From Saprospirales bacterium (GTDB lineage: Bacteria > Bacteroidota > Bacteroidia > Chitinophagales > JADIYW01), in the NCBI GenBank assembly GCA_016711605.1, contig JADJSS010000004.1:194320-258319 (forward strand): a stretch of 64,000 nucleotides of DNA, given 5' to 3'. Under the pieces are notes generated by a model. The model had not been told where the DNA came from, did no database searches, and saw only the letters and a list, made by a program, of their open reading frames with translations. Positions within the stretch are counted from its first letter, which is position 1. Each line of letters begins with the position of its first letter. This document shows, piece by piece, positions 9,271-53,237 of the stretch. The translations under genes were made by a program, and so were the position numbers.

Positions 9271-9414
9271 TTAACCACTTAAGAAGCTTAAGAAACGGAG
9301 ATTAAGTATTATAAGAGAACAAAAATATCCAATATTTGAAAACTTAGCTTTCTTATATTTTACTTTGATATTCTGGAATCTGCTTTTGCTTCTTCAGTTT
9401 CTTCAGTAGTTTAA
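9271..9414. repeat. MITE-like intergenic element (~144 bp) with imperfect terminal inverted repeats
   Basis: Left end TTAACCACTTAAGAAGCTTAAGAAAC; reverse complement of right end TTAAACTACTGAAGAAACTGAAGAAG; related in ends, length and internal AGCTTAG-TTTCTT core to 50025..50166. Confidence 0.5.
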
Positions 9415-22438: not shown

Positions 22439-22987
22439 ATGACAACATATAATTTAGATTGGTTGATAAAGAAATGTCAGTCAAAAGAAAATATAAAATA
22501 TATAGCATTCTGGGGACACCAACCCAGTAAGGATGGTAAACTTACTAAAACTTGTTTTAGCCAATGGTGGTATGCTTCATTTGTGGTGGATGAGGTTGAA
22601 TATAAAACAGCTGAACACTGGATGATGGCAGAGAAAGCAAGATTGTTTGATGATAGTAAAATTATAGATAAAATTGTAAATGCTAAAACACCAGCAGAAG
22701 CTAAGAAACTAGGCAGGTTAGTGAATAATTTTGATGCTGCAAAATGGGATTTACATAAGTTTGAAATTGTTGTGAATGGTAACTATCATAAATTCAAACA
22801 GAATAATAATATCAAGAAGATTTTATTGGAAACAAAAGATAATGTTATAGTTGAAGCAAGTCCAGTTGATAAGATTTGGGGAATTGGATTGTCACCAGAA
22901 CATCCACAGGTTAATTATCCTTGGAAATGGAAAGGCGAGAATTTATTAGGCTTCGCTTTAATGGAAGTAAGAGATTTGTTAAAATAA
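22439..22987 (+). CDS. NADAR (YbiA/DUF1768) family protein
   Basis: FWGH...FSQWW, YKTAEHWMMAEKARLF, AKKLGR, EASPVDKIWGIGL motifs; ATG directly abuts the prs stop. Confidence 0.8.
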   Translation: MTTYNLDWLIKKCQSKENIKYIAFWGHQPSKDGKLTKTCFSQWWYASFVVDEVEYKTAEHWMMAEKARLFDDSKIIDKIVNAKTPAEAKKLGRLVNNFDAAKWDLHKFEIVVNGNYHKFKQNNNIKKILLETKDNVIVEASPVDKIWGIGLSPEHPQVNYPWKWKGENLLGFALMEVRDLLK

Positions 22988-22990
22988 AAA

Positions 22991-23030
22991 CGTTGCTTCT
23001 TTGCGTCCTTTGCGTGAAATAAAATTTAAT
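22991..23030 (+). repeat. CTTTGCG-type intergenic cassette, copy 1
   Basis: cgttgCTTCTTTGCGTCCTTTGCGTGAAATAAAATTTAATAA followed by ATGAAAA. Confidence 0.7.
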
Positions 23031-23032
23031 AA

Positions 23033-23443
23033 ATGAAAACAACATTATACAGACCAGTTGGATTAAAAGAGATGGAATTAATTGTTGCATCTGGTTGGAG
23101 AAAATTTCCACTTAGATTAGAATGGCAACCAATATTTTATCCAGTATTAAACCAACAATATGCAGAACAAATTGCGTTAGATTGGAACACTAAAGATGAA
23201 TTTTCTGGTTACTGTGGCATAGTTACTGCATTTGACATAAGTGATGAATATCTTAAGCAATATGAAATTCAAAATGTAGGTGGTGCAGTACATAATGAAC
23301 TTTGGATACCATCAGAAAAATTAGAAGAATTCAATCAAAATATTATTGACAAAATCAGAATGGTAAATGCATATTTTGGTGAAGGTTTCAAACCATCAAT
23401 AAATACTGAATTGATGAATGAGTTGCAAAAATATCAACTATAA
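23033..23443 (+). CDS. conserved hypothetical protein embedded in the ADP-ribose/NAD island
   Basis: 136-aa ORF (LYRPVGLKEMELI...FPLRLEWQPIFYPVLN...DWNTKD...NELWIP); no family name recognised. Confidence 0.6.
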   Translation: MKTTLYRPVGLKEMELIVASGWRKFPLRLEWQPIFYPVLNQQYAEQIALDWNTKDEFSGYCGIVTAFDISDEYLKQYEIQNVGGAVHNELWIPSEKLEEFNQNIIDKIRMVNAYFGEGFKPSINTELMNELQKYQL

Positions 23444-23500
23444 CCTTTGCGCACTTTGCATCTTTGCGTTCCGAAATTTCAGAATTGCGTAAAATAAACA
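23444..23500 (+). repeat. CTTTGCG-type intergenic cassette, copy 2
   Basis: AACCTTTGCGCACTTTGCATCTTTGCGTTCCGAAATTTCAG..., followed by ATGAAAA at 23510. Confidence 0.7.
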
Positions 23501-23509
23501 CAAAACAAA

Positions 23510-24025
23510 ATGAAAATAGAAATAATACAAGCAGATATCACAACCGTACAAGTGGATGCCATTGTGAATGCAGCAAATACGTCTTTGCTTGGTGGCGGCG
23601 GTGTTGATGGCGCAATTCATCGAAAAGGCGGTAAGGTTATATTAGATGAATGTATGACTATCAGAGATAGACAAGGTAATTGCAAAACAGGAAATGCAGT
23701 GATAACTACAGCTGGAAATTTACCTGCAAAATATGTTATTCATACTGTTGGGCCAGTTTGGAATGTTGGTAATAATAAAGAAGAGCAGTTATTAGAAAAT
23801 TGTTATATAAATTCTTTAAAGTTAGCTGTTGAAAATAATGTAAAAACAATTGCATTTCCCAATATCAGCACGGGAATTTACCACTTTCCCAAAAAAAGAG
23901 CAGCTGCTATTGCATTCCAAACTATTCAGAATTTTCCCAACAAAGATTATTTTGATAAAATAGTATTTGTATGTTTTGATGATGAAAATTTTCAGTTGTA
24001 TAAAAATTATCAAACCAATCAATAA
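23510..24025 (+). CDS. Macro domain protein (ADP-ribose-1''-phosphatase / O-acetyl-ADP-ribose deacetylase type)
   Basis: [25 protein letters not shown] and [12 protein letters not shown] motifs. Confidence 0.9.
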
Positions 24026-24030
24026 GATAA

Positions 24031-24884
24031 AACAAGCTTTTAGGTTTAGCAATCGGCGATGCATTAGGAGTTCCTGTTGAATTCTACTCAAGGGAACAAC
24101 TAGAAAATCGACCTATTAAAGATATGATAGGATATGGTAGTTGGAATCAACCACCAGGTACTTGGTCAGATGATAGTTCACTTACTTTTTGTACCGCTGA
24201 AAGCTTGTTGGATGGATATGATGCAGAAAAAATGTTGACCTTATTTGTAAGATGGTATAAAGAAGGTTATTGGGGCGCACATCATAAATTATTTGATATT
24301 GGACAAACTACTCGATTATCTATAGCCAGATTTATAAAAAATGGATTTAGTAATATGAATGGTGAATTTGATGTGGACTCCAATGGCAATGGTTCTTTGA
24401 TGCGTATACTGCCAATGGCATTCTATCTAACAAAAATACAGGATATAGATACAAGATATAATATCATTAAAGAAGTATCATCTTTAACGCATGCGCATTT
24501 TCGAAGTGTTTTATCTTGTTTTATTTATGTTGAATTTGCTATTCATTTAATAAATGGAAATAAACCACAAGATGCATATAATTCAATGCAAAAAACAGTG
24601 AATGATTTTGTTGCAAAAATGGAATTTAATCAAAAAGAAGTGGAGCTTTTTGATCGAATTTTAAAAATGAATATTGCAATTGTTGATGTTGATTTTATTC
24701 GCTCATCTGGATATGTATTGTCAACATTAGAAGCAAGTTTGTGGTGTGTATTAAAATCAACAACTTATGTAGAATCGACTCTAAAAGCAGTAAATCTTGG
24801 TGGCGATACAGATACACTGGACCGTAAGGTGGTATTGCGCAACTATGGTATTGATGATATCCAGATAGATGGTTGAAAAAATAA
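24031..24884 (+). pseudogene. ADP-ribosylglycohydrolase (DraG/ARH family), no start codon for the conserved N-terminus and several 3' frameshifts
   Basis: LLGLAIGDALGVPVEF and WSDDSSLT motifs lie upstream of the first ATG (24124). The C-terminal GGDTDT...GIDDIP-DRWLKK can only be read by switching frames about 4 times between 24815 and 24870. Confidence 0.8.
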
Positions 24885-24890
24885 AATAAC

Positions 24891-25444
24891 ATGAATGAAC
24901 AACATAAAAAAAGTATCAGCAAATTTTTAAGCTTGATACTGCGACACAGTCCACAAACGATTCAGCTACAACTCGATGAAAATGGCTGGGTAAACACAGA
25001 TGAATTAATTTCTAAATGTGCTAAACATAAACATGTCTTTACTTTTAAAGAGTTGGAAGAAGTTGTTGCAACAAACGATAAACAACGTTTCATCTTCAAT
25101 GAAGATAAAACAAAGATAAGAGCCAATCAAGGTCATTCAATTGCTATTGATTTAGTATTGCAACCACAAACACCACCTGATTATTTATATCATGGCACTG
25201 TTTCGAAATTTCTGAATGATATAAAGAAAGATGGTTTGTTGAAGATGAGTCGCCAGCACGTGCATTTAAGTTCAGATAAAGAAACAGCTATAAAAGTGGG
25301 CAGCAGAAGAGGTGTGCCTGTTATTCTTACAGTAAAATCTGTAAAGATGTATCAAGATGGTTACTCATTCTATCTTCAGAAAATGGTGTTTGGTTAACCG
25401 ATCACGTACCAGCAAATTATATCGAATTTAAAATTAAAAGATGA
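24891..25444 (+). CDS. kptA: RNA 2'-phosphotransferase Tpt1/KptA (one frameshift near 25375)
   Basis: KFLSLILRHSP, GWV, NQGHS, LYHGT, HVHLS motifs; the C-terminus SENGVWLTDHVPANYIEF lies in another frame; TGA overlaps the next ATG (ATGA at 25441). Confidence 0.85.
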
Positions 25445-26174
25445 ACACAACTTATGTTATTGGTGATATACATGGTGCTTTAAAAGCGTTGATACAAGTA
25501 TTGAATAAAGTACAACCAACGAATGAAGATACCTTTATTTTTTAGGTGATTATGTAGATGGCTGGTCTGAATCAGCACAAGTAATAGACTATTTGATTGA
25601 ATTTAATAAACATCACCAATGCGTATTCGTTAAAGGGAACCATGATGTTTGGACAATGGATTGGCTGCAAGGAAAATCAGTAGATCCAATTTGGCTGAAA
25701 CATGGCGGTATGGAAACAATTGATAGTTATAAAGGTTTGGGTGATGAAAGAAAAGCTCAACATCTGGATTTCTATCAAAATCTGCAGAATTATTTTATCG
25801 ATGACAAAAACAGATTATTTATTCATGCAGGATTTTCTTCTATGCACGGACCAGCTTCTGAATTCTATATGACCAATTATACTTGGGATAGAACACTTTG
25901 GGAAATGGCATTAACGTTGGATAATCGCATTCAAAAAGATTCTGTCCTATATCCAAATAGATTGAAGTTATACCATGAAATTTATATAGGTCATACACCA
26001 ACGATTAATTATAAAGTTGATGTTCCAATGAATGGTTGTAATGTGTGGAATATAGACACAGGTGCAGCATTTACGGGCAAACTCAGCATCATGAATATAG
26101 ATACCAAACAATTTTTTCAAAGCGATATTATTAAAGAATTATATCCAAATGAAGTTGGTAGAAATAAAAGATAA
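25441..26174 (+). CDS. calcineurin-like metallophosphoesterase (one frameshift in the T-run at 25531-25536)
   Basis: VIGDIHG, (F)LGDYVDGW, VKGNHD, GHT motifs; adding one T to the T-run restores TFIFLGDYVDG. Confidence 0.8.
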
Positions 26175-26186
26175 AATACTTTAAAA

Positions 26187-26240
26187 ACTTTGCGCCTTAG
26201 CTTCTTTGCGCTCTTTGCGTGAAATTAAAATTTAAAAATG
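26187..26240 (+). repeat. CTTTGCG-type intergenic cassette, copy 3, followed by a dead copy of the nadV start
   Basis: ACTTTGCGCCTTAGCTTCTTTGCGCTCTTTGCGTGAAATTAAAATTTAAAA, then ATGAAAATTAATCCATACTAA (compare nadV ATGAAAATCAATCCATTCTTA). Confidence 0.7.
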
Positions 26241-26300
26241 AAAATTAATCCATACTAAATTAAGTATAAAAATAGCAGACAAAAAATGAATCAATAAAAG

Positions 26301-26345
26301 CAGCGCCTTTGCTTCTTAGCGTTCTTAGCGTTAAATCAAAATTCA
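26301..26345 (+). repeat. CTTTGCG/CTTAGCG-type intergenic cassette, copy 4
   Basis: GCGCCTTTGCTTCTTAGCGTTCTTAGCGTTAAATCAAAATTC upstream of nadV. Confidence 0.7.
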
Positions 26346-26366
26346 ATCAAAATCAAATAAAAAAAA

Positions 26367-27817
26367 ATGAAAATCAATCCATTCTTATTAACCGACTTTT
26401 ATAAAGTTGGGCATCCATTTCAGTATCCTGAAAAAACAACATTAGTGTATTCAAATCTAACTGCCAGAAAAAGCAGATTAGTAAATGTTAATGAAATGGT
26501 GTTCTTTGGTTTGCAATATTTTATGAAAGAATATCTATTAGAATATTTCAATGAATCCTTTTTTCAACAACCTAAAGAAAAAGTAATAAATGAATACAAG
26601 CGAAGAATTAGTTCAGCATTAGGTGGCGATTTACCAACTTACATTCATATTGAAAAATTACACGATTTAGGTTATTTGCCAATAGAAATTAAAGCATTGC
26701 CAGAAGGTAGTAAAGTTCCAATGCGTGTTCCGTGTTTAACCATCGTAAATACATTACCAGATTTTTATTGGTTAACCAATTTTCTAGAATCATTATTATC
26801 TGCTGTTATTTGGCAACCTTGTACTTCTGCAACTATTGCGCATGAATATCGTAAACTACTAGATAAATATGCTATAGAGACAGGTATGCCATTAGATTTT
26901 GTACAATGGCAAGGACACGATTTTAGCTTTCGTGGCATGAGTTCTTTAGAGTCAGCTATCTTATCTGGTATGGGACACCTACTGTCTTTTTCTGGTACAG
27001 ATACCATACCAGCCATTGATGCATTAGAATATTATTATCATGCAAATTCAGATAAAGAATTAATTGGTGGAAGTGTGCCAGCAACCGAACACAGCGTTAT
27101 GTGTAGCGGTGCAAAAGACGGCGAATTAGAAACCTTTAAAAGATTGATTACAGAAGTGTATCCAAATGGCATTGTAAGTATTGTTTCTGATACTTGGGAT
27201 TTATGGAAAGTATGTACAGAATATTTGCCTCAATTAAAACAAGATATTTTGGCAAGAGATGGCAAAGTCGTGATACGACCAGATAGTGGCGATCCTGTTT
27301 TAATTATTTGTGGTAATCCAAATGGTAAAACAGGAGCAGAGCGTAAAGGCTTAGTCGAGTTATTATGGGATGTATTTGGTGGAACGATTACAGATAAAGG
27401 GTATAAATTGTTAGATAGTCATATTGGTGCTATTTATGGTGATAGCATAAATATTGACAGAGCAACGCGTATTTGTGAAAATTTAAAAACGAAGGGTTTT
27501 GCTTCGCAAGTGGTATTTGGAATTGGTAGTTATACCTATCAATACAACACACGTGATACCTTTGGTATGGCAATGAAAGCTACTTATGTAGAGATAGATG
27601 GTGAAGCAAGAGAAATATTTAAAAGTCCAATTACTGATGATGGTACAAAGGTTTCTGCAACTGGATTGTTATCTGTAAAAAAGAGAATAATAAATTTGTG
27701 TTGCAAGATAAAGTAAGCTGGAATGAAGAAAAAAATAGCGATTTAAAAACAGTTTTCTTAAATGGAAAAATTATTAAAGAGTTTACTTTACAAGAAATTA
27801 GAGAAAATTTGATTTAA
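26367..27817 (+). CDS. nadV: nicotinamide phosphoribosyltransferase-like protein (NadV/NAMPT family; one frameshift near 27690)
   Basis: NAMPT-type pattern (TDFYK, FGLQY, GHDFSFRGM, IRPDSGDP, GDS...GIGS); C-terminal FVLQDKVSWNEEKNSDLKTVFLNGK in another frame. Confidence 0.85.
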
Positions 27818-29164: not shown

Positions 29165-32064
29165 ATGATTAGACTTGTCATTTCTGTATTTCTGTATTTC
29201 TTTTGTTCTTCGTTTTCTATTGCTCAAAATTTTACCATTTCTGGTAAAATATTAGATTCAAAAGATAACGCACCTTTAATCGGTGTAAATGTTTTACTTA
29301 CAAAAGAAAATGACTCTGTTTTTCAAAAAGGTGCAAGTACCGATTTAGAAGGTAATTTTTCAATTGAAAATGTAGAAACTGGTAATTATAAGTTGAATAT
29401 TAGCTATGTAAGTTTTAAATCTTTCGACAAATCTATTTTAGTTAACGCGAATCTAGATTTGAAAACAATTACATTGGTAGAAGATAGTAAATTATTGAAA
29501 GAAGTAATAGTAGAAGAAAAACAGATTCGTGTACAACAACTTGGTGATACATCACAATTTAATGCAAACGCATTTAAAACCAATAAAGATGCAACTACAG
29601 AAGATTTATTGACAAAAATGCCAGGCGTTACTTCTGAAAATGGAACCGTAAAAGTAAATGGTGAAGAAGTAAAAAGAGTTTTAGTTGATGGTAGACCATT
29701 TTTGGCGATGATCCACGAACTGCAGTGCAAAATTTACCTGCTGATATCATAGATAAAGTTCAAGTGTTCGATAAGATGAGCGATCAGTCTGCATTTACTG
29801 GTTTTGACGATGGAAACTCTCAAAAAACTATAAATATTATTACAAAAATGGATTGAATAATTCAAAATTCGGAAGAGTTTTTGCTGGTTACGGTGGAAAA
29901 AATAACAGATATAATATTGGCGGAAATTATAATTCTTTTAAAGGTGATAAACGTTTTTCTGTTTTAGCTATGAGTAATAATATTAAACAACAAAATTTTA
30001 ATATTCAAGATTTGGTTGGTGCTACCAACACAGGAAATACTGGTGGTTCAGGTAATAGTGGTCGCGGTGGACCAAATGGAATTGGAAGAAATAATCCAGC
30101 AAATAATTTTTTAGTTGGTCAACAAAATGGTATTGCTACAACCACAGCTTTAGGTTTAAATTATGCTGATAAAATTGGTAAACAAAGGAAAGTTACGTTA
30201 ACTGGTTCGTACTTTTTTAATGGTACAAAAAATGTAAATGAAAGTTCAGCTATTCGTAATTATATTTCATCCAACGATAGTAATTTGGTGTATAACGAAA
30301 ATAAAAACACTACCAGTAAAAATTTCAATAATCGTGTAAACCTTAGAATTGAATATGCGATTGATTCATCGAATTTATTAACGTTTACGCCAAGTTTCAC
30401 ATCACAAAATTACAATTCAACATCTATTTTAGATGCGGCAAATTCAAAAAATAATACCGCAATAATTAACTCAACCAATAATACTCAAACGTCAAAACAA
30501 GTAGGTTTTAATTTTTCAAATGATATTTTATATCAACATAAATTTGCAAAGAAAGGCAGAACGATTTCATTTAATTTAAACACTTCTGGAAATTTTAAAA
30601 ATACGAATGGTACTTTATTTACTTACAATCAATTTGAAACAGATTCTACTATAACTGTTGATTCTATTGATCAAAAATCTACCTTAAAAACTAAAAAGTT
30701 ATACGGTTGGCGGAAATATAATGTACACAGAACCTATTAAAAAATTTGGTCAACTTTCTATTAATTATTCACCATCTTATACCAATTCAACATCACAAAA
30801 AAATACGAATAATTTTGATGTTACTTCACAAGATTATTCAAGACAAGACATTGCATTAAGCAATCAATTCAACAATAAATACATTACCAACAAACTTGGA
30901 ATTTCGTATCGATATAACAATAAAAAAATAAACTGGACAATTGGTTTAGTTGGTCAAGATGCTTTATTACGCAGCGAACAAGTGTCACCTAATCAAATTT
31001 CTGTCAATAAAAATTTCTTATCATTATTGCCAAATTCAGAATTAAATGTCAAGTTTTCTAAAACAGAAAATTTGCGTGTTACTTACAGAACATCAACCAA
31101 TCCACCAACTGTTACACAATTGCAAAATGTAATTGATAATAGTAATTCATTGATATTAACTTCAGGAAATCCTGATTTAAAACAAAATTTTCAACAAAAT
31201 ATTGGTTTACGATATAGTAAAACAAATACAAAAAAAGCAACCAATTTATTTGTGTTTGCAAATGCAACAAACACGATAAATTATATTGCTAATTCAACCA
31301 CTATTTTTGTCCGTGATACAATAATTAATAATATTGCTGCAAAAGCAGGAGCACAATTTATTCAACCAATAAATATAAATGGATATTGGAATACTCGAAC
31401 ATTTATAACGTATGGATTTTCAATCACCAAATTAAAAAGCAACATGAATGTGAATGGCGGTTTTGTTTATACACGCACACCAACGCTAATTAATGATGCG
31501 CGAAACAATGCAAATTCTTACGCGTTAAATGCAGGATTTTCTTTAAGCAGCAACATCAGCACAAAGATTGATTTTACGGTTTCGTATAACGCAAATTATA
31601 CAATTGTTCGAAATACATTACAAACTAAAAACAATAATAATTACTTTAATCACACAGCATCAGCTAAGTTTAATTATCAATTCTGGAAAGGATTTGTTTT
31701 TAACACATCTGTGAGTAATACTTTAAATGCTGGTGGTTCGAGCTCTTTCAACACAAGTTACTGGTTGTTGAATGCATCGTTAGCATATAAGTTTTTGAAA
31801 GACGAAAGTTTAGAAGTGAAGTTTAGTGCGAATGATATTTTAAATCAAAATAGAAATATCACGAGAAATGTTACAGATACGTATACAGAAGATACGCGTT
31901 CAACTGCATTGCAACGATATTTCTTAGGAACGATTACTTACACATTTAAAAAAGTAGGTGCGAAGTCTGAAAACCCAAATGAGAAACCAAAAGATTTTAT
32001 GATGATGCCACCACCACCAACTGGTGCTGCTGGACCACCAATGATGCCACCACCTGGAAATTAA
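29165..32064 (+). pseudogene. TonB-dependent-receptor-like outer membrane beta-barrel protein (3 frameshifts: near 29700, 29845, 30695)
   Basis: Signal peptide, CarboxypepD_reg-like N-domain (GKILDSKDNAPLIGVNV), plug-like segment (LLTKMPGVT...VLVDGRPF(F)GDDP), long beta-rich Asn/Thr-rich body ending in aromatic residues, then a Pro/Met-rich tail. Confidence 0.7.
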
Positions 32065-32100: not shown

Positions 32101-33653
32101 TTACTTTTCGTCTTTTTTCTTCTTCTTTTAAAATTGGTGTTAAGCTGATACTTTTAACTATCGGTTTTTTATTTTGAGTAGTTTTTATTTTTAATTCACT
32201 ATTGATATAACCATCTTTCGATGCTTTAATGATATAGTTTGAATTTGGTTCTAAGTTTTCCGTAAATTTTTTTATAGAAAAGAATCCAACATAATTTTTC
32301 CATTTTTTCTAAACTAACTTGTACGCTATCTATTGGATTTCCGTTGCTGTAAAAACTAATTTCCAAAGGAATATTGGTGTATTCAAACTCATAAATATCA
32401 TCCATACCTTTTCCGCCAACTCTATCGGACGAAAAATAACCGATGCTATAATTTCCATCTAAATAAAAACCAAAATCATCTGTTGAAGAATTAAATGGCT
32501 TTCCTAAATTTTCTGGTTTACCAAATTCACCAATTTTATTTGGTACACTTTTGTAAATATCCATTCCACCAAAACCTGCATAACCATTCGAAGAAAAATA
32601 CAAGGTTCCATCTGCATGTATAAATGGATAACGTTCGTCACCGCTAGTGTTTATTGACTTTCCACAGTTTTTAGGTTTGCTCCAAACACCATTTGTTTTC
32701 ACAGAAAAATAAATATCTTTTCCACCAAAACCACCACCACGATCAGATGCAAAATATAAAACTGTTCCTTGATTACTAATAGATGGAAACGCGCAAGAAT
32801 ATTCAACATCATTTAATTCTAATAATTTTATGTCATTCCAGCCATTGTGATTTTTTTCTGCAGAAAATATTTTTAAAGTAACATCGCCTTTTTTATTGGT
32901 AATAGCATCGCCGTATTGGAAATTATTTTTGGTAAAATATATGATGTTATGTGACGTATCAACACAAGCTGGACCGCTATTCATTTTCTTAGTATTCACT
33001 ACACCTTTTATTGGCTCAACCACATATACGGAATCTTTATTTAGTTTAGCAACGTATACTTGTTGAAAACCCATTCCTGAAGTTCCGTTTATTTTTCCTT
33101 CACGTGTAGAAGTAAATAAAATTCCTTTTTCAAATGGCATTGCACAAAAGTCTGACGTTTTAGAGTTTATTTTTTCTAGATTTCGAACAATAATTTTACG
33201 GATTGATTCTGTATTGGTTTTTCCTTTTTCACAAGATGCAATTAATGCTTTGGTGAAAGTGGAATCTGCATTTTTTAAAGCATAATATTTTTGCAGCCAA
33301 ATTTTTGCAGTATCATATTTTTCATTGTTCATCAACATTTGACCATAATATAAAAATGATTTTGGAATAGCATTTTTATCAGCAACAACTAAAGCATAAT
33401 ATTTCTCAGCATTTTCGTACTCATTTATTTTACGATAACAGTCGGCAATTTTGCGTATTGCACGAATATTGCCTTTATCAGCTTCAGGTTTGTATAATTC
33501 AGCAGCTTGTGCATACTTATAATCATTGTATAATTTATCACCTTTTTCAATTTGTGAAAAAGAGTAGAAAGTAGAAATTAATAAGGAAAAAGTTATAAAC
33601 GACTTTTTAAATAAAAATCGTAAATCGTAAATCGTAAATCTTAAATTGTTCAT
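32101..33653 (-). CDS. secreted TPR plus PD40/TolB-like beta-propeller repeat protein (frameshifted near 32230-32290)
   Basis: Signal peptide; TPR-like N-region; repeated FSSDR/GGxGGxDIY motifs; C-terminal ASKDGYINSELKIKTTQNKKP in another frame. Confidence 0.65.
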
Positions 33654-37082: not shown

Positions 37083-37112
37083 AGTTTAGTAGTAGTAAGT
37101 AATAAGTGATAA

Positions 37113-37148
37113 GGAATAAGTAGTGATAGTAAACTTACTACTTATTCC
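37113..37148 (-). terminator. perfect 12-bp-stem hairpin between the TPR gene and ribH
   Basis: GGAATAAGTAGT / ACTACTTATTCC. Confidence 0.5.
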
Positions 37149-37161
37149 TTACTATTTACAA

Positions 37162-37866
37162 CTATAATGTTTGTGCTTCTAATTTAGCAATATAAATTTC
37201 AGATGCCATTCCTTCTTGTGAAGCTGGATAGTTTTTGTTCACTTTCTTATACAATTCCAACGCCTCTTTTTTGTTGCCTTTTTGTTCTAAAGCTAATGCA
37301 GCTCTATATAAATAAGTTGGAGTAGTAATTTCGTTATCAGCAGCATCAGCAGCTTTTTTGTAATTTTCAATTGCTTTTTCCATTTGATTTTGCTCAGCAA
37401 ACGCATCTGCAATACAACCAAATTTTCTTGCAGTTAATAAAGCATCACCTGCATTAAAATCTTCTAAATATTTTATTGCTTCTGGATATTTTCCAAGTTT
37501 TAAATTACAAATTCCTGCACAAAATCTTGCTCTGTTTCCTGCAGCTGTGCCACTGTATTGTTTAGCTATTGCTTCAAAACCTAAATGAGCGCCATCACCT
37601 TTTAATGCAAAATTTAATGAATCCATTTCAAAATAATTTTGTGCATCTAAAATAGCAGTTGCTGCTTTTTGTTCTTTTGGTTTTTTAATTAAATTGTTGT
37701 AAGACCACCAACCTGCAATTAGTGCTACTATTGCAATTAAAACACCAATAATTATATTTTTATATTGTTCAAAAAAGTATTCTGCAGATTCAAAAATCTG
37801 AGTCATTTTTTCATTACTATCATCTAAAATATCGTGTGATGAAGCTGTTGTGTTTTTCTTTGCCAT
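37162..37866 (-). CDS. membrane-anchored tetratricopeptide repeat protein (YfgM-like)
   Basis: Single TM helix (IIGVLIAIVALIAGWW) followed by TPR-like repeats. Confidence 0.65.
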   Translation of the reverse strand: MAKKNTTASSHDILDDSNEKMTQIFESAEYFFEQYKNIIIGVLIAIVALIAGWWSYNNLIKKPKEQKAATAILDAQNYFEMDSLNFALKGDGAHLGFEAIAKQYSGTAAGNRARFCAGICNLKLGKYPEAIKYLEDFNAGDALLTARKFGCIADAFAEQNQMEKAIENYKKAADAADNEITTPTYLYRAALALEQKGNKKEALELYKKVNKNYPASQEGMASEIYIAKLEAQTL

Positions 37867-46471: not shown

Positions 46472-47727
46472 TTAGATAGATATTTTAGTAAAAACTATTT
46501 TTTTATGTTTATTAGATCGGTTTTTATTAAACCGTTTCTTACCGTTTCCAAACGATTTTTTGTTTGATTTTTTTCTCGGCTCATAAGCTGGTGCTTCGCC
46601 AAATTCTGCTGGCAATTCTGCTTTCGGAACTTCTTTACCAAGCAATTCTTCAATCACCAATAATTTTGATTGTTCTGCTTCGCTTACCAATGTAATAGCA
46701 GTTCCTTCTGTTTCTGCTCGTGCCGTTCTGCCAATTCTGTGTACATAATCTTCGCCATCGTTCGGCACATCATAATTAATAACTAAATCAATATCTTCAA
46801 TATCAATACCGCGCGATATAACATCTGTAGCAATTATTATATGTGTTTTACCACTTCTAAAATTCAACAACACCTTCTCACGTTCGTCTTGTTCTAAATC
46901 AGAATGAATTTCTTCGTTATTTATTTTTGCTCGATTTAGTTCTTTACTCAAATTTTTAACGCTTTCTTTTCTTGAACAAAAAACTACGATTTTATTATAA
47001 TTTACATCTTTCAGTAAATATTTTATCAATGGAATTTTTTGCGGCTCATAAACGATATAAGCTTTTTGAATTATTTTTTCTGGTGGTTTGGATATTGAAA
47101 TATTTATTTGTTCAGGATTTTTTAAAATTTTCAAACCCATTTCACGCATTTTTGGTGGCATCGTTGCAGAAAATAAAAGCGTTTGTCTTTCTACAGGTAA
47201 AAACGAAATGATACGCATAATATCATCATAAAAACCCATGTCAAGCATTCGATCTGCTTCATCTAAAACAAGATGTTTTAGTTTTTTTATTTTGACGTAA
47301 TCAGAAGCTAAATGACTAATCATTTTCCTGGTGTACAAATCACAATATCAACACCATTAGAAAGTGCGCGTTTTTCCTGTTCAAATGAAATTCCGTCTTT
47401 TCCACCATAAATTGCAATTGAAGAAATAGGTGTAAAGTACGAAAACGCTTCAAGGTTTTGAGCAATTTGAATGGCCAGCTCACGAGTAGGTACAATCACT
47501 AATGAATTGATTTCGTCTTCGTGATGCTCAGTAGTAATTAATTCGTTGATGATAGGCAATAAAAACGCAGCGGTTTTTCCAGTTCCAGTTTGAGCAGATG
47601 CAATTACATCTTTTCCTGCTGTAATAATCGGAATTACTTGCTCTTGCACTGCCGTGGCAAGTTTATAATTCATCGCATCGATACCTTCTAATAATCGCTC
47701 ATCAAATCCAAAGTCTTTAAAATCCAA
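46472..47727 (-). CDS. DEAD-box ATP-dependent RNA helicase (one frameshift in the A-run near 47330)
   Basis: AQTGTGKTAAF, PTRELA, VLDEADRMLDMGF, SAT, RGIDI, HRIGRTAR; TPGK-MISHL is restored by adding one A. Confidence 0.9.
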
Positions 47728-48936: not shown

Positions 48937-49028
48937 AGGAACAATTTGCTAAACATTTTCCCAGATTAAATGAAAATTTAAATAAAGATTCCTTATAAAT
49001 TTGTTATTTTAACCTCCTAAAAATTCAT

Positions 49029-50006
49029 ATGCAAATCAGAAATAATTGGACATTTTCAGAAATTCAAGAAATATATCATCAGCCACTATTAGAGTTGATG
49101 TATCAGGCAGCAACCGTACATCGAAACTTCAACCAAACTGGTGAAGTGCAGGTATGTACGCTTTTATCAGTTAAAACAGGTGGCTGCTCTGAAGATTGTG
49201 CGTATTGTCCACAAGCAGCTCGCTACCACACCAACGTAAAAGCACATAAATTATTGAAAGTTGATGAAGTGCTGGAAAAAGCCAATGAAGCCAAACAAAA
49301 TGGTTCTACACGGTTTTGTATGGGTGCTGCCTGGCGCGAAGTACGCGATAACCGCGATTTCGACAATGTACTAGAAATGGTGAAAGGTGTGAACGAAATT
49401 GGATTAGAAGTTTGCTGCACCATGGGTATGTTGACCGAAGAACAAGCCGACAAATTGAAAAATGCTGGTTTATATGCGTATAACCACAATTTAGATACGT
49501 CTGAAGATAATTACGAAAACATCATTACCACACGCACGTTTGAAGAAAGATTGAACACGATTGGAAATGTGCGTAAAGCTGGAATCAGCGTTTGCAGTGG
49601 TGGAATCATCGGAATGGGTGAGAGCCATGACGCCAGAATTGGTATGATTCATACATTAGCTACCTTGCCAGAACATCCTGAATCGGTGCCTGTTAATGCT
49701 TTAGTAGCGGTTGAAGGAACACCTTTGGAAAACATGAAACGTGTTTCCGTTTTTGAAATGGTACGTATGATTGCAACTGTTCGCATTACCATGCCTAAAA
49801 CCATGGTGCGTTTAAGCGCTGGACGCTTAGATATGCCAGTGTCTGAGCAAGCGCTGTGCTTTATGGCTGGTGCAAACTCTATTTTTGCTGGTGATAAATT
49901 GCTGACAACACCAAATCCAACCTTTACCGATGATATGGCAATGTTTGAATTATTAGGTTTAAAACCACGAGAAGCATTTAAAAAGGAAATGGCTTTGTCT
50001 AATTAA
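49029..50006 (+). CDS. bioB: biotin synthase
   Basis: Radical-SAM [10 protein letters not shown]; full-length BioB pattern. Confidence 0.95.
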
Positions 50007-50024
50007 AATATAAATAGTCAAAAA

Positions 50025-50166
50025 TAACCACTTAAGGCACATAAGTAACTTAAGTTATAATATAGAAGATTTCAAAAATAGGAAAGTAAGAAAGCTTAGT
50101 TTTCTTCCGAAGTTTCAAAACTATTTTAGATTATTACCTTAAATTTTCTTTTTTCTTATGTTTCTT
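50025..50166. repeat. MITE-like element (~142 bp) with near-perfect ~21-bp terminal inverted repeats
   Basis: TAACCACTTAAGGCACATAAG ... CTTATGTTTCTTAAGTGGTTA; related to 9271..9414. Confidence 0.6.
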
Positions 50167-50219
50167 AAGTGGTTAAAAATTCAGACTACTATTTTATTAT
50201 TTTATTGAAATAGGTCGAT

Positions 50220-50429
50220 TTAGGGTCTTGAACTGGTGCGTTAGGGTCTCAAACCCTAAATTTAGGGTCAACAACCCTAAAGTTAAGGTCTCAAACCCTA
50301 ATTTTAGGGTCTGGAATCCTAAAGTTAAGGTCTGCAATCCTAAATTAAAGGTCTCAAACCCTAACGTTAGCGTCTAGAACCCTAACGTTGGAGTTCAGAA
50401 CCCTAACGATAGGTTTTAGAACCCTAAAT
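50220..50429. repeat. tandem array of ten 21-bp units, each a 7-bp-stem palindrome (consensus TTAGGGTCTCAAACCCTAA)
   Basis: Unit starts at 50220, 50241, 50262, 50283, 50304, 50325, 50346, 50367, 50388 and 50409 (exact 21-bp phase); the outer units are degenerate. Confidence 0.9.
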
Positions 50430-50467
50430 CAGCATGTTGAATTTTATTTATTTTCTTTGAAATTAAA

Positions 50468-51601
50468 ATGAATATAAACGATAGAATTGAAAACTACCTA
50501 CTTAAACGAAAAGAAGCACATCTTTTTCGTCAATTATCTGTAAATCAAATGCTTATTGATTTTTCATCTAATGACTATTTGGGTTTATCTAAGTCTGCAT
50601 ATATTAAACAACAAGTTGATATTGAATACAATATATTAAAAACTACAAAATCAGGTGCAACAGGTTCTCGTTTATTAAATGGAAACTCTTCTCTTTTTGA
50701 AGATTTAGAGCAATTGCTGGCTGATACGCATCATGCTGAAGCTGCATTACTGTTCAATTCTGGCTTTGATGCGAATGTTGGTTTGATTTCGACAGTTGCT
50801 CGACCGAATGATGTCATTTTTTATGATGAATTGGTACATGCATCTATTCACCAAGGTATGCAATTAAGTGACGCAAAACTGGTTGCTTTTGCACACAATG
50901 ATATGATTGATTTGGAAGAAAAGTTGAAATTGAAAGCTGTTGGTCAGATAGGTTTTATCATTACTGAATCGCTCTTTTCCATGGAAGGTGATCAGCCTGA
51001 TTTACAAAAATTAGCTGATTTAGCTTCAAACTACGAAGTTGAATTAATCATTGATGAAGCACATGCAACTGGACTTTTTGGCAGAAAAGGTGCAGGTTTA
51101 TGTAATGTTGCAGCAATAGAAACAAAGTGCTTTGCACGTGTTTATACTTTTGGAAAAGCCATTGGAAGCCACGGTGCAGTAGTGGTTTGCAGCCAAAAAC
51201 TAAAACAGTATTTGATTAATTTTTCAAAACCATTTATCTATTCAACAGCTTTAGAAACGCATAATTTATTGTCTGTGAAACATAGTTATTTTTATTTACA
51301 AAGTACTATAAATCAACAAATTAAATTAAATAATTTAATCTTTTACTTTAAAAATAAATTTCACTCATTAAAAACTAAATTTTCGCTCATTGGCGATGGT
51401 CCAATTTTTGGAATATTGGTTTCTGGTAATGAAAGCTGTCGAAAAATAGCCAAGCATCTTCAAGAAAATGGATTAGATATCCGACCAATTGTTGCACCAA
51501 CCGTTCCCAAAGGAACAGAACGATTGAGAATTATACTGCACAGCTATAATTCAAAAGAAGAAATTGATTTATTGTGCAATTTACTAACTGATTATCAATA
51601 G
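50468..51601 (+). CDS. bioF: 8-amino-7-oxononanoate synthase
   Basis: Alpha-oxoamine synthase pattern, DEAHATG, TFGKAIGSHG (PLP lysine). Confidence 0.9.
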   Translation: MNINDRIENYLLKRKEAHLFRQLSVNQMLIDFSSNDYLGLSKSAYIKQQVDIEYNILKTTKSGATGSRLLNGNSSLFEDLEQLLADTHHAEAALLFNSGFDANVGLISTVARPNDVIFYDELVHASIHQGMQLSDAKLVAFAHNDMIDLEEKLKLKAVGQIGFIITESLFSMEGDQPDLQKLADLASNYEVELIIDEAHATGLFGRKGAGLCNVAAIETKCFARVYTFGKAIGSHGAVVVCSQKLKQYLINFSKPFIYSTALETHNLLSVKHSYFYLQSTINQQIKLNNLIFYFKNKFHSLKTKFSLIGDGPIFGILVSGNESCRKIAKHLQENGLDIRPIVAPTVPKGTERLRIILHSYNSKEEIDLLCNLLTDYQ

Positions 51602-51610
51602 AATATAAAA

Positions 51611-52228
51611 ATGAAGAAATACATCATTGCTGGAATTGGAACCAATATTGGTAAAACAGTTACATCTGCAGTTTTAGTGGAGGCACTGCATGCTGATTAC
51701 TGGAAGCCAGTACAATCAGGTAATTTAAACGAAACGGATACTGATTTTGTGCGAAAATATGCAAAAAACCATCAAACTATTTTTCAAGAAGCATTTTTAT
51801 TAAAAGAGCCAGTTTCACCACATTTAGCTGCTAAATTAGAATCAAAAGTTATTGATATAGAACAGATTAAATTAGTTAATACAAATAATCACTTAATAGT
51901 AGAAACTGCTGGTGGTTTGCTTTCACCTTTATCAGAAAAATATTTATGTATTGATTTAATTAAAGAACTACAACTATCTGTTATACTTGTTTCTATGAAT
52001 TATTTAGGAAGCATTAATCATACCTTATTGTCAATTGAAGCATTAAAACAAAGAAATATTCCAATTGAAGGAATAATCTTTTGTGGTGATCCAAATTTTG
52101 AAACTGAAAGATTTATTTTAGAATATTCTAAAATACCTTTACTTGGTAAAATTCCATTTACTGACAATTTGACGCAAGAATTTATTTCAGAACAAGCAAA
52201 ACAATTTAGTCATCTACAAGGTAATTAG
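51611..52228 (+). CDS. bioD: dethiobiotin synthase
   Basis: GTNIGKT P-loop, ETAGG; operon position. Confidence 0.85.
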   Translation: MKKYIIAGIGTNIGKTVTSAVLVEALHADYWKPVQSGNLNETDTDFVRKYAKNHQTIFQEAFLLKEPVSPHLAAKLESKVIDIEQIKLVNTNNHLIVETAGGLLSPLSEKYLCIDLIKELQLSVILVSMNYLGSINHTLLSIEALKQRNIPIEGIIFCGDPNFETERFILEYSKIPLLGKIPFTDNLTQEFISEQAKQFSHLQGN

Positions 52229-52274: not shown

Positions 52275-53237
52275 ATGAAACCACCGTTTGAAGTTACCAA
52301 TACAATCTTGAAATTAATTTCATTAATTTCTGAAAAAATTGGTGAAGTCAATGCCAAATTTTTAGATAAACAAAATCCACAATTACGAAAACAAAATAAA
52401 ATTAAAACTATTCATTCCTCTTTGCAGATTGAAGGTAACACACTAACTATTGAACAAATTACTGCAATTGTTGAAAATAAGCGTGTGGTTGGTCCACAAA
52501 AAGATATTGTAGAAGTTATTAATGCAATTGAGGTTTATGATAATTTATCAAAATTTAATCCAACTATAGAAAATGATTTTCTGCTTGCTCACCAAATGTT
52601 GATGAAAAACCTCATTCAGAATAGTGGTAAATATAGAACTCAATCTGTTGGAATTGTGAATGGAACTATCGTTAAACATATTGCACCATCTTACCAGAAT
52701 GTACCTTTTTTGATGAAAGATTTATTTAATTATTTAAATTCAGATGATGACATTGCTTTACTTAAAAGTTGTGTTTTTCATTATGAAATGGAATTTATTC
52801 ATCCGTTTACAGATGGAAATGGAAGAATGGGACGGCTTTGGCAAACGCTTATTTTAATGTACTCGTATCCTGTTTTTGAGTATTTACCTTTTGAAACTTT
52901 AATTAGCAAAAATCAAGATAACTACTATGCAGCACTTTCTATGAGCGATAAACAGGGAAAGTCAACTATTTTTATCGAATTTATGTTGAACATTATTTAT
53001 CAGTCGCTGTCTGAATTAACTAATTATAACAACAGAATAATAAAAGACACAGATAGAATAGATTATTTCATAAATAAAAATATAAATGAGTTTTCCAGAA
53101 AAGATTATCTAAACATATTTAAAGAATTATCAACTGCATCAGCCAGTCGAGATTTAAAAAAAGGTGTAGAATTAGGTTATTTTGAAAAAACTGGCGACAA
53201 AAAATTGACAATTTACAGACTTAAAAAGAATCAATAA
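52275..53237 (+). CDS. fic: Fic family protein (AMPylase-type) with N-terminal inhibitory motif and C-terminal winged-helix-like domain
   Basis: HPFTDGNGRMGR matches HxFx(D/E)GNGRxxR; SLQIEG matches (S/T)xxxE(G/N); C-terminal STASASRDLKKGVELGYFEKTG. Confidence 0.85.
   Translation: MKPPFEVTNTILKLISLISEKIGEVNAKFLDKQNPQLRKQNKIKTIHSSLQIEGNTLTIEQITAIVENKRVVGPQKDIVEVINAIEVYDNLSKFNPTIENDFLLAHQMLMKNLIQNSGKYRTQSVGIVNGTIVKHIAPSYQNVPFLMKDLFNYLNSDDDIALLKSCVFHYEMEFIHPFTDGNGRMGRLWQTLILMYSYPVFEYLPFETLISKNQDNYYAALSMSDKQGKSTIFIEFMLNIIYQSLSELTNYNNRIIKDTDRIDYFINKNINEFSRKDYLNIFKELSTASASRDLKKGVELGYFEKTGDKKLTIYRLKKNQ

What the first reader, a model, noticed from the sequence alone, without database searches (positions are those of the whole stretch)
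50220..50429. Ten phase-exact 21-bp palindromic units (TTAGGGT-N5-ACCCTAA) inside the biotin operon
Seen: units start every 21 bp from 50220 to 50409. The central units are near-perfect 7-bp-stem, 5-nt-loop inverted repeats (for example TTAGGGTCTCAAACCCTAA) and the outer ones decay. Because each ACCCTAA is followed 2 nt later by the next TTAGGGT, alternative pairings between neighbouring units are also possible. The array sits between bioB and bioF, directly after a MITE-like element. The bioB-bioF gap is therefore 461 bp, whereas bioF-bioD and fic-bioA are separated by 9 and 1 nt. Inference: 21 bp is two helical turns, which is typical of iteron-like protein-binding arrays. As RNA it would form ten consecutive hairpins, a strong processing, stability or polarity element splitting bioB from bioFDA. 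It is neither a CRISPR array nor a coding repeat, and I do not recognise it as a described repeat family.
Basis: seen in the sequence. Interest (0 to 1): 0.7.

Follow-up and report, generated by a model that had tools for sequence, protein, structure and literature searches.

The report
Palindromic 21-bp minisatellite splitting bioB–bioF
A real array of ten 21-bp palindromic DNA repeats was inserted secondarily between two biotin-synthesis genes of a Chitinophagales bacterium, and it belongs to a small, apparently undescribed family of repeat arrays built on the heptamer TTAGGGT; it is a curiosity, not a core regulator of the operon.

Summary
Ten phase-exact 21-bp units (consensus GTTAGGGTCTCAAACCCTAAA) occupy window 50220-50429 between bioB and bioF. 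All 11 exact TTAGGGT heptamers in the 64 kb lie inside the array. It is not an artefact: 11 independent assemblies carry the same ten units.

It is a derived insertion. Relatives with BioF 69-82% identical have bioB and bioF overlapping or 9 bp apart. A sister species has six units and lacks the neighbouring MITE-like element.

Related arrays occur in unrelated contexts, at three loci of a Saprospiraceae MAG and on one metagenome contig. They share the heptamer, the 21-bp period and one polarity: TTAGGGT-only units on the left, palindromic units in the centre, ACCCTAA-only units on the right.

Within units there are no compensatory changes, yet heptamer positions change three times less often than loops and spacers.

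Best reading: a foldback-type palindromic minisatellite, probably recognised by an unidentified DNA-binding protein. It is co-transcribed in the operon and folds strongly (-85 kcal/mol), so it probably acts like a REP/BIME intercistronic structure. The iteron/replication, operator and CRISPR readings are not supported.

It is a new variant of a known kind, of moderate interest.

The parts
50220..50429 (.). Array of ten 21-bp units (TTAGGGT-N5-ACCCTAA-N2). Polarity: unit 1 keeps the left half only, units 2-8 keep both halves, units 9-10 keep mainly the right half.
50241..50280 (.). The two perfect palindromic units (units 2 and 3).
50430..50467 (+). 38-nt A/T-rich leader directly upstream of the bioF ATG. 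Together with the last half unit it is 53/54 identical to the sister species, although 4-fold sites differ by 24-35%. Inferred to be the bioF translation-initiation or leader region.
50176..50219 (.). Linker between the MITE-like element and the array. Its 3' part (from CTACTAT) is homologous to the left flank of the six-unit array in L081.
50025..50175 (.). Separate MITE-like inverted-repeat element (24-nt arms, 88% complementary). Absent in L081, present in L083 and L001-L008. A partial second copy of its right end lies at 9269-9355 (-).
49029..50006 (+). bioB (TIGR00433, 399.7 bits, above cut-off).
50468..51601 (+). bioF (best NCBIfam hit TIGR00858, below cut-off; Pfam Aminotran_1_2).
48996..49003 (+). 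TAAATTTG, the only + strand match to the Bacteroidota -7 consensus TAnnTTTG near the operon, 26 nt upstream of bioB. There is none in the bioB-bioF spacer, so the array is inferred to be co-transcribed.

Best explanation
The array is a lineage-specific, non-coding palindromic minisatellite. It belongs to a small family of 'convergent phased-heptamer' (foldback-type) arrays in Chitinophagales-like Bacteroidota.

Shown:
- It was inserted into a bioB-bioF junction that was ancestrally overlapping or 9 bp wide.
- It then changed copy number (six units in the sister species, ten here).
- Only later did the locus acquire the neighbouring MITE-like element, and later still the fic gene.
- Related arrays with the same heptamer, 21-bp period and left/right polarity lie in unrelated intergenic contexts elsewhere.

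Inferred:
- The TTAGGGT heptamers, two helical turns apart and pointing towards the array centre from both sides, are recognition sites of a trans-acting DNA-binding protein encoded elsewhere (transposase- or recombinase-like, or another sequence-specific binder). That protein would account for the family's spread and conservation.
- Unit number changes by slippage or unequal exchange.
- In this operon the array has no promoter of its own, so it is transcribed with bioB-bioFDA. The RNA folds into a very stable multi-hairpin/foldback, which replaces the former bioB/bioF translational coupling. It probably behaves like a REP/BIME intercistronic structure, acting as a 3'-exonuclease barrier or processing site that favours bioB over bioFDA.
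- bioF is then initiated independently from the conserved A/U-rich 38-nt leader.
For: - The array is real and fixed: ten units in 11 assemblies.
- It is a derived insertion. In L084 (BioF 82% identical) the gap is 9 bp, and in L086 and L087 (69%) bioB and bioF overlap by 1 nt with the same DUF4296-bioB-bioF-bioD-bioA synteny.
- Sister species L081/L082 (BioF 87%) has six units, the same flanks and no MITE-like element.
- Family members: L010, L021 and L022 (one Saprospiraceae MAG) and L074 show a 21-bp period with TTAGGGT-only units on the left, palindromic units in the centre and ACCCTAA-only units on the right. All 5 independent arrays have this polarity (P = 0.03).
- Their neighbours are unrelated: a type ISP restriction-modification enzyme, a subtilase, a T9SS adhesin and an unknown protein.
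- Most units in the Saprospiraceae arrays are not palindromic but keep the heptamer and the phase. This points to sequence recognition, not unit hairpins.
- Within units there are 0 compensatory changes, and pairing is 89.0% against 89.7% in shuffles.
- Between the window and L081, heptamer positions changed at 7/63 sites against 15/42 for loops and spacers (Fisher P = 0.003). The neutral benchmark is 24-35% at 4-fold sites.
- RNA fold is -85 kcal/mol, z = -7.6.
- There is no + strand TAnnTTTG in the spacer; one lies upstream of bioB.
- The bioF leader is 53/54 conserved.
Against: - No binding protein, transposase or RAYT was identified. None is encoded in the 64-kb window.
- No target-site duplication or shared leader/tail was found at the five loci, so mobility is not demonstrated.
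- Only one array is visible in this genome (64 kb seen).
- The family members were found with a pattern that required the heptamer, so heptamer conservation is partly by ascertainment. Period and polarity were not required by the pattern.
- L074 has a perfect 16-nt long-range inverted repeat and mirrored variant heptamers (TTGGGGT/ACCCCAA, TTGTGGT/ACCACAA). L081 has TTAGCGT...ACGCTAA. These fit arm-to-arm pairing or templated repair rather than pure protein recognition.
- The sister-species array has no perfect unit, so any function is dispensable or decaying.
- The RNA-level effect is entirely untested.
- Promoter inference rests on a consensus match only.
Confidence: 0.5

Rival explanations
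1. Neutral by-product. A palindromic sequence expanded in situ by replication slippage and hairpin-templated repair. No trans-acting protein is involved and the array has no effect that matters to the cell.
For: - Copy number differs between species (6 versus 10) with conserved flanks.
- The sister array has no perfect unit.
- Array-less relatives run the same operon.
- Within-species polymorphism density in the array (about 12 of 210 columns) is similar to that in the adjacent MITE-like element (about 8 of 151).
- Clustered changes in L004 unit 8 look like conversion.
- Another inverted pair of tandem repeats with a different motif lies in L010 at 7733-7900, which suggests a general mutational process.
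Against: - The same heptamer, 21-bp phase and convergent polarity recur at four other loci in at least two other genomes with very different GC content (31% versus about 50%). Independent in-situ origin of the same motif is unlikely.
- Heptamer positions change three times less often than other array positions (P = 0.003).
- Copy number is identical in 11 assemblies of the species.
Confidence: 0.22
2. Operator or roadblock array. Each 19-bp palindrome binds a dimeric repressor (for example a DtxR/MntR-like or other helix-turn-helix protein) that controls bioFDA separately from bioB.
For: - The palindromes have 7-bp half-sites and a 21-bp phase.
- Both half-sites are conserved without covariation, as expected for half-site recognition.
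- The outer pentamers resemble the 19-bp DtxR operators listed in PMC524172 (TTAGGATAGCTTTACCTAA, 12/19 identical).
- Similar TTAGGGT-N3-5-ACCCTAA pairs sit in divergent promoter regions of SAR86, Patescibacteria and alphaproteobacterial genomes and of high-GC phages.
- BioB is an Fe-S enzyme (general knowledge).
Against: - The array is absent from four relatives with the same operon and degenerate in the sister species.
- There is no recognisable promoter in the spacer to be repressed.
- Family members sit beside unrelated genes, one of them at a gene's 3' end.
- Most Saprospiraceae units are single-heptamer direct repeats, not dimer sites.
- No DtxR-type or other candidate regulator is encoded in the window.
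- Ten tandem operators have no precedent in biotin regulation (BirA, BioR, BioQ; my own knowledge).
Confidence: 0.13
3. Replication or partition element: iterons of an origin or a plasmid-type centromere, possibly a remnant of an integrated replicon.
For: - The 21-bp (two-turn) phasing and the blocks of oppositely oriented repeats resemble iteron sets of plasmids and the palindromic iterons of lambda ori, as well as sopC-type centromeres (my own knowledge).
- Both flanks are A/T-rich.
Against: - There is no rep, par or phage gene in the 64 kb; the neighbours are housekeeping genes in conserved synteny.
- There is no GC-skew switch.
- There are no matches in 72,556 plasmids or 50,697 phages beyond one weak chance hit.
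- Viral-contig scans gave only unrelated repeats.
- The inserted segment is only about 190 bp in the sister species.
Confidence: 0.03
4. Assembly or sequencing artefact, or a coding repeat.
For: - The window has at least one homopolymer frameshift (T5 run at about 47322), so its base-level quality is not perfect.
- Two frames per strand lack stop codons over parts of the array.
Against: - The same array is present in 11 independent assemblies from several pipelines, and the six-unit form in two more.
- The ORFs are at most 53 codons and are broken by the indel in L081 unit 2.
- No predicted protein in a database of 5.8 billion matches the translations.
Confidence: 0.01

Closest known systems
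REP/BIME elements of Enterobacteria (repetitive extragenic palindromes in tandem clusters inside operons, e.g. malE-malF)
   Same: Both are short imperfect palindromic units repeated head-to-tail in a transcribed intercistronic gap. Both are non-coding, form strongly structured RNA and vary in unit number between relatives. For REP/BIME the expected effect is on upstream mRNA stability and downstream expression (my own knowledge).
   Different: BIME units alternate in orientation, whereas here the polarity is block-wise (left-type, palindromic, right-type). REPs occur in hundreds of copies with a cognate RAYT transposase, whereas here there is one array in 64 kb and no RAYT in view. There is no sequence similarity.
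BrickBuilt MITE/minisatellite of Porphyromonas gingivalis (PMC4596501)
   Same: Both occur in Bacteroidota. [quoted passage not shown] In both, copy number differs between strains or species.
   Different: BrickBuilt has conserved 'leader' and 'tail' segments with terminal inverted repeats and reported promoter activity. The arrays here share no flanks, and the adjacent inverted-repeat element is an independent insertion. BrickBuilt is reported only in P. gingivalis, and its unit was not compared here.
Plasmid and phage iterons and tandem-repeat centromeres (R6K/P1/F iterons, lambda ori palindromic iterons, F sopC)
   Same: Both have phased repeats about two helical turns apart. Both can have blocks of opposite orientation. 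Both combine palindromic units that fit dimer binding with single half-site units that fit monomer binding (my own knowledge).
   Different: Here there is no initiator or partition gene and no replicon context. The array is a roughly 190-460-bp insert in a housekeeping operon.
Foldback (FB) transposable elements of eukaryotes
   Same: Both consist of two inverted arrays of short tandem sub-repeats that can abut without a central loop. The arms are of unequal length and copy number is variable (my own knowledge; compare).
   Different: FB elements are a eukaryotic family with known target duplications and a transposase in some copies. No duplication or transposase was found here, and the elements here are much smaller (125-270 bp).
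DtxR/IdeR 19-bp palindromic operators (PMC524172, PMC1382209)
   Same: Both are 19-bp palindromes with TTAGG...CCTAA ends. The identity to the tox operator is 12/19.
   Different: DtxR operators are single or few sites in promoters of metal-regulated genes. Here there are ten tandem copies between cistrons with no promoter, and related arrays consist mostly of single heptamers.

Membership tests
REP/BIME | Imperfect palindromic unit of about 20-40 bp in transcribed extragenic DNA | tested here: met
   21-bp units with 7-bp arms lie between bioB and bioF, and there is no promoter motif in the spacer.
REP/BIME | Many dispersed copies per genome | tested here: not met
   Within the 64 kb available there is one array and no other exact heptamer. 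The whole genome was not available.
REP/BIME | Alternating orientation of neighbouring units within a cluster | tested here: not met
   All units are in one register, and polarity changes once, block-wise.
REP/BIME | Cognate RAYT (Y1 transposase) gene | tested here: inconclusive
   No Y1_Tnp hit among 59 of the 62 window ORFs of at least 80 codons, scanned against Pfam. The rest of the genome was not seen.
BrickBuilt-type MITE with internal minisatellite | Spacer-less tandem repeats of about 21-23 nt, imperfect, with variable number | tested here: met
.
BrickBuilt-type MITE with internal minisatellite | Conserved leader and tail with terminal inverted repeats around the repeats | tested here: not met
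   The flanks of the window, L074, L010, L021 and L022 arrays share no sequence. The inverted-repeat element at 50025-50175 is absent in L081.
BrickBuilt-type MITE with internal minisatellite | Sequence similarity of the repeat unit | not tested
   No BrickBuilt sequence was in hand. The paper reports no BLASTn match outside P. gingivalis.
Replication iterons | Phased direct repeats at multiples of the helical repeat | tested here: met
   The period is exactly 21 bp.
Replication iterons | Adjacent initiator (rep) gene and replicon or mobile-element context | tested here: not met
   The neighbours are housekeeping genes in synteny conserved in relatives. There are no plasmid or phage matches.
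Tandem-repeat partition centromere (sopC/parC type) | Adjacent parA/parB-type genes | tested here: not met
   None found in the window.
CRISPR array | Repeats separated by unique spacers of similar length | tested here: not met
   The units abut and only 2 nt lie between palindromes.
Biotin-operon operator (BirA/BioR/BioQ type) | Site in the bio promoter, conserved among relatives with the same operon | tested here: not met
   The array lies between cistrons and is absent in L084, L085, L086 and L087.
DtxR/IdeR operator | 19-bp palindrome matching the TTAGGTTAGCCTAACCTAA-type consensus, in a regulated promoter | tested here: not met
   Only 12/19 identical to the tox operator, with no promoter motif nearby. 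Family members mostly carry single heptamers.
Foldback-type element | Two inverted arrays of tandem sub-repeats | tested here: met
   In L010, L021 and L022 the left units are reverse complements of the right units (TTAGGGTTATTTTGARAAACG). L074 has a 16-nt perfect long-range inverted repeat. The window shows the same polarity in compact form.
Foldback-type element | Evidence of transposition (target-site duplication, filled and empty sites with exact boundaries, transposase) | tested here: inconclusive
   There is no consistent duplication at the five loci. The empty sites (L084, L086, L087) are too diverged to define boundaries.
Rfam RNA families | Match at the gathering score | tested here: not met
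   No hit at gathering score in the window. Only sub-threshold microRNA-precursor hits, i.e. generic long hairpins.

The most novel reading that the evidence does not exclude
The arrays could be the footprint of an undescribed bacterial system. A sequence-specific protein would bind TTAGGGT heptamers phased every two helical turns in two convergent blocks. This could be a prokaryotic foldback-type mobile element with its own transposase or recombinase. Alternatively it could be a chromosomal protein that assembles polar filaments meeting at a palindromic centre, acting as a boundary, loading or termination site. Such a system would be conserved across Chitinophagales/Saprospiraceae.
Probability: 0.15. 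Interest if true: 0.75.

Novelty: new variant of a known kind. Interest (0 to 1): 0.42.

Why it matters
- The locus gives a datable series of insertions into one small housekeeping operon: first the array, then a MITE-like element, then fic. It also offers natural 0-, 6- and 10-unit alleles in close relatives. This is a ready-made comparison for asking how an intercistronic structured repeat changes relative expression of a formerly translationally coupled gene pair (BioB versus BioF).
- The family-level features are a conserved heptamer, a strict 21-bp phase and a single convergent polarity in genomes of 31% and about 50% GC. They suggest an unidentified DNA-binding or mobilising protein in a poorly studied bacterial order that is abundant in wastewater.
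- If the array is only slippage debris, it is still a clean example of how palindromic minisatellites arise and decay in bacteria.

Tried and rejected
- Rfam at gathering score and at E <= 1 gave nothing but sub-threshold microRNA hairpin models.
- tRNA/tmRNA scan found none in the window.
- Sigma-70 promoter and intrinsic-terminator scan gave nothing above shuffles, and the scan is not suited to Bacteroidota.
- The viral-contig scan for ACCCTAA-N14 x3 returned plant-type telomere repeats, coding DPN repeats and unrelated iterons. The viral scan for the palindromic pattern returned only operator-like sites of high-GC phages.
- BLASTN of the array against plasmids and phages gave one weak chance hit and no hit respectively.
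- In the genome scan, the SAR86, Patescibacteria, alphaproteobacterial and Actinomycetota hits are pairs of palindromes in promoter regions with different loop and spacer lengths. I judged them unrelated operators.
- Most metagenome hits were eukaryotic telomere-associated sequence.
- A chimeric query made of array translations, meant to find arrays mis-called as genes in the 5.8-billion-protein database, gave no hit. This search was wasted.
- Coding-repeat reading was rejected.
- Origin or terminus of replication was rejected because there is no skew switch.
- An 18-nt similarity between unit 10 and bioF codons 4-9 (D2) is at chance level.
- A link between the array and the 50025-50175 element was rejected, because L081 has the array without the element and the window has a partial element copy at 9269-9355 without an array.
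- Fic as the array-binding protein was rejected, because L083 and L081 have arrays without fic.
- Two literature searches for this repeat found no description of it.

Full report
**1. The observation**

Reading window 49900-50600 and printing it in 21-base register shows ten units starting at 50220, 50241 ... 50409, with no indel:

| Unit | Sequence |
|---|---|
| 1 | TTAGGGTCTTGAACTGGTGCG |
| 2 | TTAGGGTCTCAAACCCTAAAT |
| 3 | TTAGGGTCAACAACCCTAAAG |
| 4 | TTAAGGTCTCAAACCCTAATT |
| 5 | TTAGGGTCTGGAATCCTAAAG |
| 6 | TTAAGGTCTGCAATCCTAAAT |
| 7 | TAAAGGTCTCAAACCCTAACG |
| 8 | TTAGCGTCTAGAACCCTAACG |
| 9 | TTGGAGTTCAGAACCCTAACG |
| 10 | ATAGGTTTTAGAACCCTAAAT |

- Tandem Repeats Finder reports period 21, 9.0 copies, 72% matches.
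- The palindrome pattern with up to 3 mismatches hits nine in-phase positions here, against 1.57 expected in the whole window.
- All 11 exact TTAGGGT heptamers in 64 kb (both strands) lie in the array, against 3.6 expected for the whole window and none found elsewhere.
The gaps are 461, 9, 46 and 1 nt.
- The inverted-repeat element is 50025-50175 (24-nt arms, 88% complementary), 44 bp upstream of the array.
- Only units 2 and 3 are perfect palindromes.
- The decay is polar. Unit 1 keeps a perfect left half and no right half. Units 7-10 keep perfect right halves while their left halves decay progressively.

**2. Not an artefact, and what organism**

The exact BioB protein is on record in 61 blocks of the public assembly collection. 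Eight contigs from ENA, NCBI and JGI assemblies (L001-L008) carry the same spacer at about 99% identity, with ten units each. A JGI contig (L079) and L083 do so as well.

The closest named BioF relatives are 'Chitinophagales bacterium' MAGs. DUF4296 next to bioB is a Bacteroidota marker, and the window has 30.6% GC. The window is an ordinary chromosomal stretch encoding hemF, icd, ruvB, ribH, trx, xerD, aroQ, comEC and yidC. It has no transposase, rep, par, RAYT or DtxR-type gene among the 59 of 62 ORFs of at least 80 codons that were scanned against Pfam.

**3. The array is a secondary insertion**

| Locus | BioF identity to window | bioB-bioF junction | Other features |
|---|---|---|---|
| L086, L087 | 69% | bioB and bioF overlap by 1 nt | same DUF4296-bioB-bioF-bioD-bioA order |
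| L084 | 82% | 9-bp gap | - |
| L085 | 78% | different upstream gene (HNH) | no array |
| L081 (confirmed by L082) | 87% | 191-bp gap | six-unit array with the window's left (GGTCGAT) and right (CAGCATGTTGAATTTT...) flanks; no MITE-like element; no fic |
| L083 | about 97% over the full-length frame | as in the window | MITE-like element and ten units; no fic |

The order of events is therefore: array acquisition, then change in unit number (six versus ten), then MITE-like insertion, then fic insertion. The operon functions without the array in relatives, so the array is not an ancestral regulatory design.

**4. A family with a characteristic architecture**

A pattern scan of one genome per species found three loci in one Saprospiraceae MAG (L010, L021, L022). 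A metagenome scan found one further contig (L074, 34% GC). These contain 9-13 units with a 21-bp period.

In every case the left units carry only TTAGGGT, a few central units are palindromic (TTAGGGT-N5/6-ACCCTAA), and the right units carry only ACCCTAA. In the Saprospiraceae arrays the left unit TTAGGGTTATTTTGAAAAGCG is the reverse complement of the right unit CGTTTCTCAAAATAACCCTAA. The arrays are therefore two inverted blocks of one asymmetric 21-bp repeat, with unequal arm lengths (2 versus 7, 1 versus 8 and 5 versus 2 units).

The window array is a compact version with the same polarity. All five independent arrays are convergent (P = 0.03 under random orientation). The search pattern demanded only one and a half palindromic units, not period or polarity.

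Neighbouring genes are unrelated: a type ISP restriction-modification enzyme, a subtilase, a T9SS adhesin and an unknown protein whose 3' end abuts the L074 array. The flanks share no leader or tail, and no consistent target duplication is present.

Other hits of the scans were judged unrelated. They were pairs of palindromes in SAR86, Patescibacteria and alphaproteobacterial promoters, phage operators, eukaryotic telomere-associated repeats and coding DPN repeats.

**5. Hairpin or half-site?**

- I aligned 26 palindrome-like units from all arrays and imposed the 7-bp unit hairpin. 89.0% of cells pair, no more than in column shuffles (89.7%), and there is no pair with a change on both sides. 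The palindromy therefore reflects conservation of both half-sites, not maintenance of pairing.
- The mismatches in the window units show no strand bias towards G-U-compatible changes (my count).
- Most Saprospiraceae units are not palindromic at all, yet keep the heptamer and the phase.
- Between the window and L081, orthologous units differ at 7/63 heptamer positions and at 15/42 loop or spacer positions (P = 0.003). 4-fold degenerate sites of bioB and bioF differ by 24-35%. The heptamers are therefore constrained or homogenised, and the rest drifts about neutrally.

These points favour sequence-specific recognition of the heptamer.

Against a purely protein-based view:
- L074 has a perfect 16-nt long-range inverted repeat (CTCCTCCGTTGGGGTT / AACCCCAACGGAGGAG) and mirrored variant heptamers.
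- L081 has TTAGCGT in unit 2 matched by ACGCTAA in unit 3.

Arm-to-arm complementarity is therefore also maintained, either by selection or by hairpin-templated repair.

**6. Likely consequence in the operon**

- The only + strand match to the Bacteroidota -7 consensus TAnnTTTG near the operon lies 26 nt upstream of bioB (48996). The spacer has none. The array is thus probably transcribed within the bioB-bioFDA mRNA. This rests on a consensus match only.
- As RNA, 50210-50440 folds to -85 kcal/mol (shuffles -53 +/- 4.2, z = -7.6). As DNA it folds to -38.7 kcal/mol (z = -5.4). The minimum-energy fold closes unit 1 onto units 9-10 and mixes inter-unit pairs with unit hairpins.
- The last half unit plus the 38-nt A/U-rich leader of bioF is 53/54 identical between the window and L081. 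This is better than the flanking coding sequence at about 90% (P = 0.02) and far better than the neutral expectation. The leader is therefore under constraint, most simply as the new independent translation-initiation region of bioF.
- By analogy with REP/BIME clusters (my own knowledge), the structured block would protect the upstream bioB message and lower or uncouple bioFDA expression. This is inference and nothing here measures it.

**7. Comparison with known systems**

- Closest in kind are REP/BIME clusters and the BrickBuilt MITE/minisatellite of Porphyromonas gingivalis. BrickBuilt has 23-nt spacer-less repeats at 19 loci, predicted long stem-loops and no Rfam match (PMC4596501).
- Membership in both families fails on defining features. 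There is no alternating orientation, no high copy number in view and no RAYT. There are also no shared leader or tail segments with terminal inverted repeats.
- Iterons and centromeres share the phasing and the mix of single and palindromic sites, but lack the required rep or par genes and replicon context.
- The 19-bp DtxR operator shares only the outer pentamers (12/19).
- CRISPR and coding repeats are excluded.
- The inverted blocks of tandem sub-repeats resemble eukaryotic foldback elements, but transposition is not shown.

**8. Verdict**

I rate as most likely (0.5) a foldback-type palindromic minisatellite of a small Chitinophagales family, probably protein-recognised. It was inserted secondarily into the bioB-bioF junction and acts, if at all, as an intercistronic RNA structure.

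Rival readings:
- neutral slippage product: 0.22
- operator or roadblock array: 0.13
- replication or partition element: 0.03
- artefact or coding repeat: 0.01

This is a new variant of a known kind, of moderate interest. The more novel reading is an undescribed heptamer-binding or mobilising system. It is not excluded (about 0.15) and is directly testable by a genome-wide periodic-motif scan and a DNA pull-down.

Noticed in passing
window 52275-53237: A Fic/DOC-domain gene (320 aa; weak NCBIfam similarity to SoFic and 'mobile mystery protein B') sits between bioD and bioA only in the window and L001-L008. L083, which has an otherwise near-identical spacer, and L081 and L084-L087 have bioD and bioA abutting or overlapping (1 nt apart in L081, L083 and L084). 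This is a recent insertion of about 1 kb inside the operon.
   Followed up: partly
window 50025-50175 and 9269-9355 (-): MITE-like element of 151 bp with 24-nt terminal inverted repeats (88% complementary). It is absent from the sister species L081. A partial copy of its right end (27 nt at 93% plus 18 nt at 94%) lies between two genes at about 9.3 kb, so it is a dispersed family independent of the array.
   Followed up: partly
window 46472-47727 (-): The DEAD-box helicase is split into two ORFs by a 1-nt deletion in a T5 run at about 47322. All eight related contigs have an intact gene of 408-410 aa. This is either a homopolymer sequencing error or a fresh pseudogene. Several other window genes also look truncated or split (comEC 620 versus 695 aa; OMP beta-barrel 29970-30740 / 30721-32064).
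   Followed up: partly
window 21605-27716: A co-oriented cluster of ADP-ribose/NAD-related genes: a Prs-like ribose-phosphate diphosphokinase, NADAR, a Macro domain protein, an ADP-ribosylglycohydrolase, Tpt1/KptA RNA 2'-phosphotransferase and a NAMPT-type nicotinate/nicotinamide phosphoribosyltransferase (556 bits). It looks like an NAD salvage or ADP-ribose-processing module.
   Followed up: no
window 51609-52228 versus L081 5143-5760: bioD is about 99% identical in nucleotides between the window and the sister species, whereas bioB and bioF are about 90% identical (4-fold sites 24-35% different). This indicates a recent recombination tract covering bioD.
   Followed up: partly
L010 7733-7900: The Saprospiraceae MAG also has (AAGTGAA)8.6, then 71 bp, then (TTCACTT)5.3. 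This is another inverted pair of tandem repeats with a different motif, which suggests that foldback tandem repeats are a recurrent feature of that genome. L010 also carries a 29-bp G-rich repeat at 45-124 and 4922-5004.
   Followed up: no
L004 and L079, unit 8 of the array (aligned to window 50365-50387): In one strain lineage unit 8 differs at six clustered positions (CGTTAGCGTCTAGAACCCTAA to AATTAGGGTCTCTAACCTTAA), while the neighbouring units differ by one change or none. This looks like a conversion event between units.
   Followed up: no
window 33615-33646 and 37085-37165: A short heptanucleotide repeat (AAATCGT)4.6 lies at the 5' end of, or upstream of, a PD40-repeat gene. A 16-bp-stem hairpin lies between ribH and a TPR gene.
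   Followed up: no
L013, L024, L026, L028, L029, L011 (SAR86 and other Gammaproteobacteria): Two tandem TTAGGGT-N4-ACCCTAA palindromes 3 nt apart sit immediately upstream of a conserved gene whose product starts like a TetR-type regulator. This is probably an autoregulatory operator conserved across SAR86 and unrelated to the array family.
   Followed up: no
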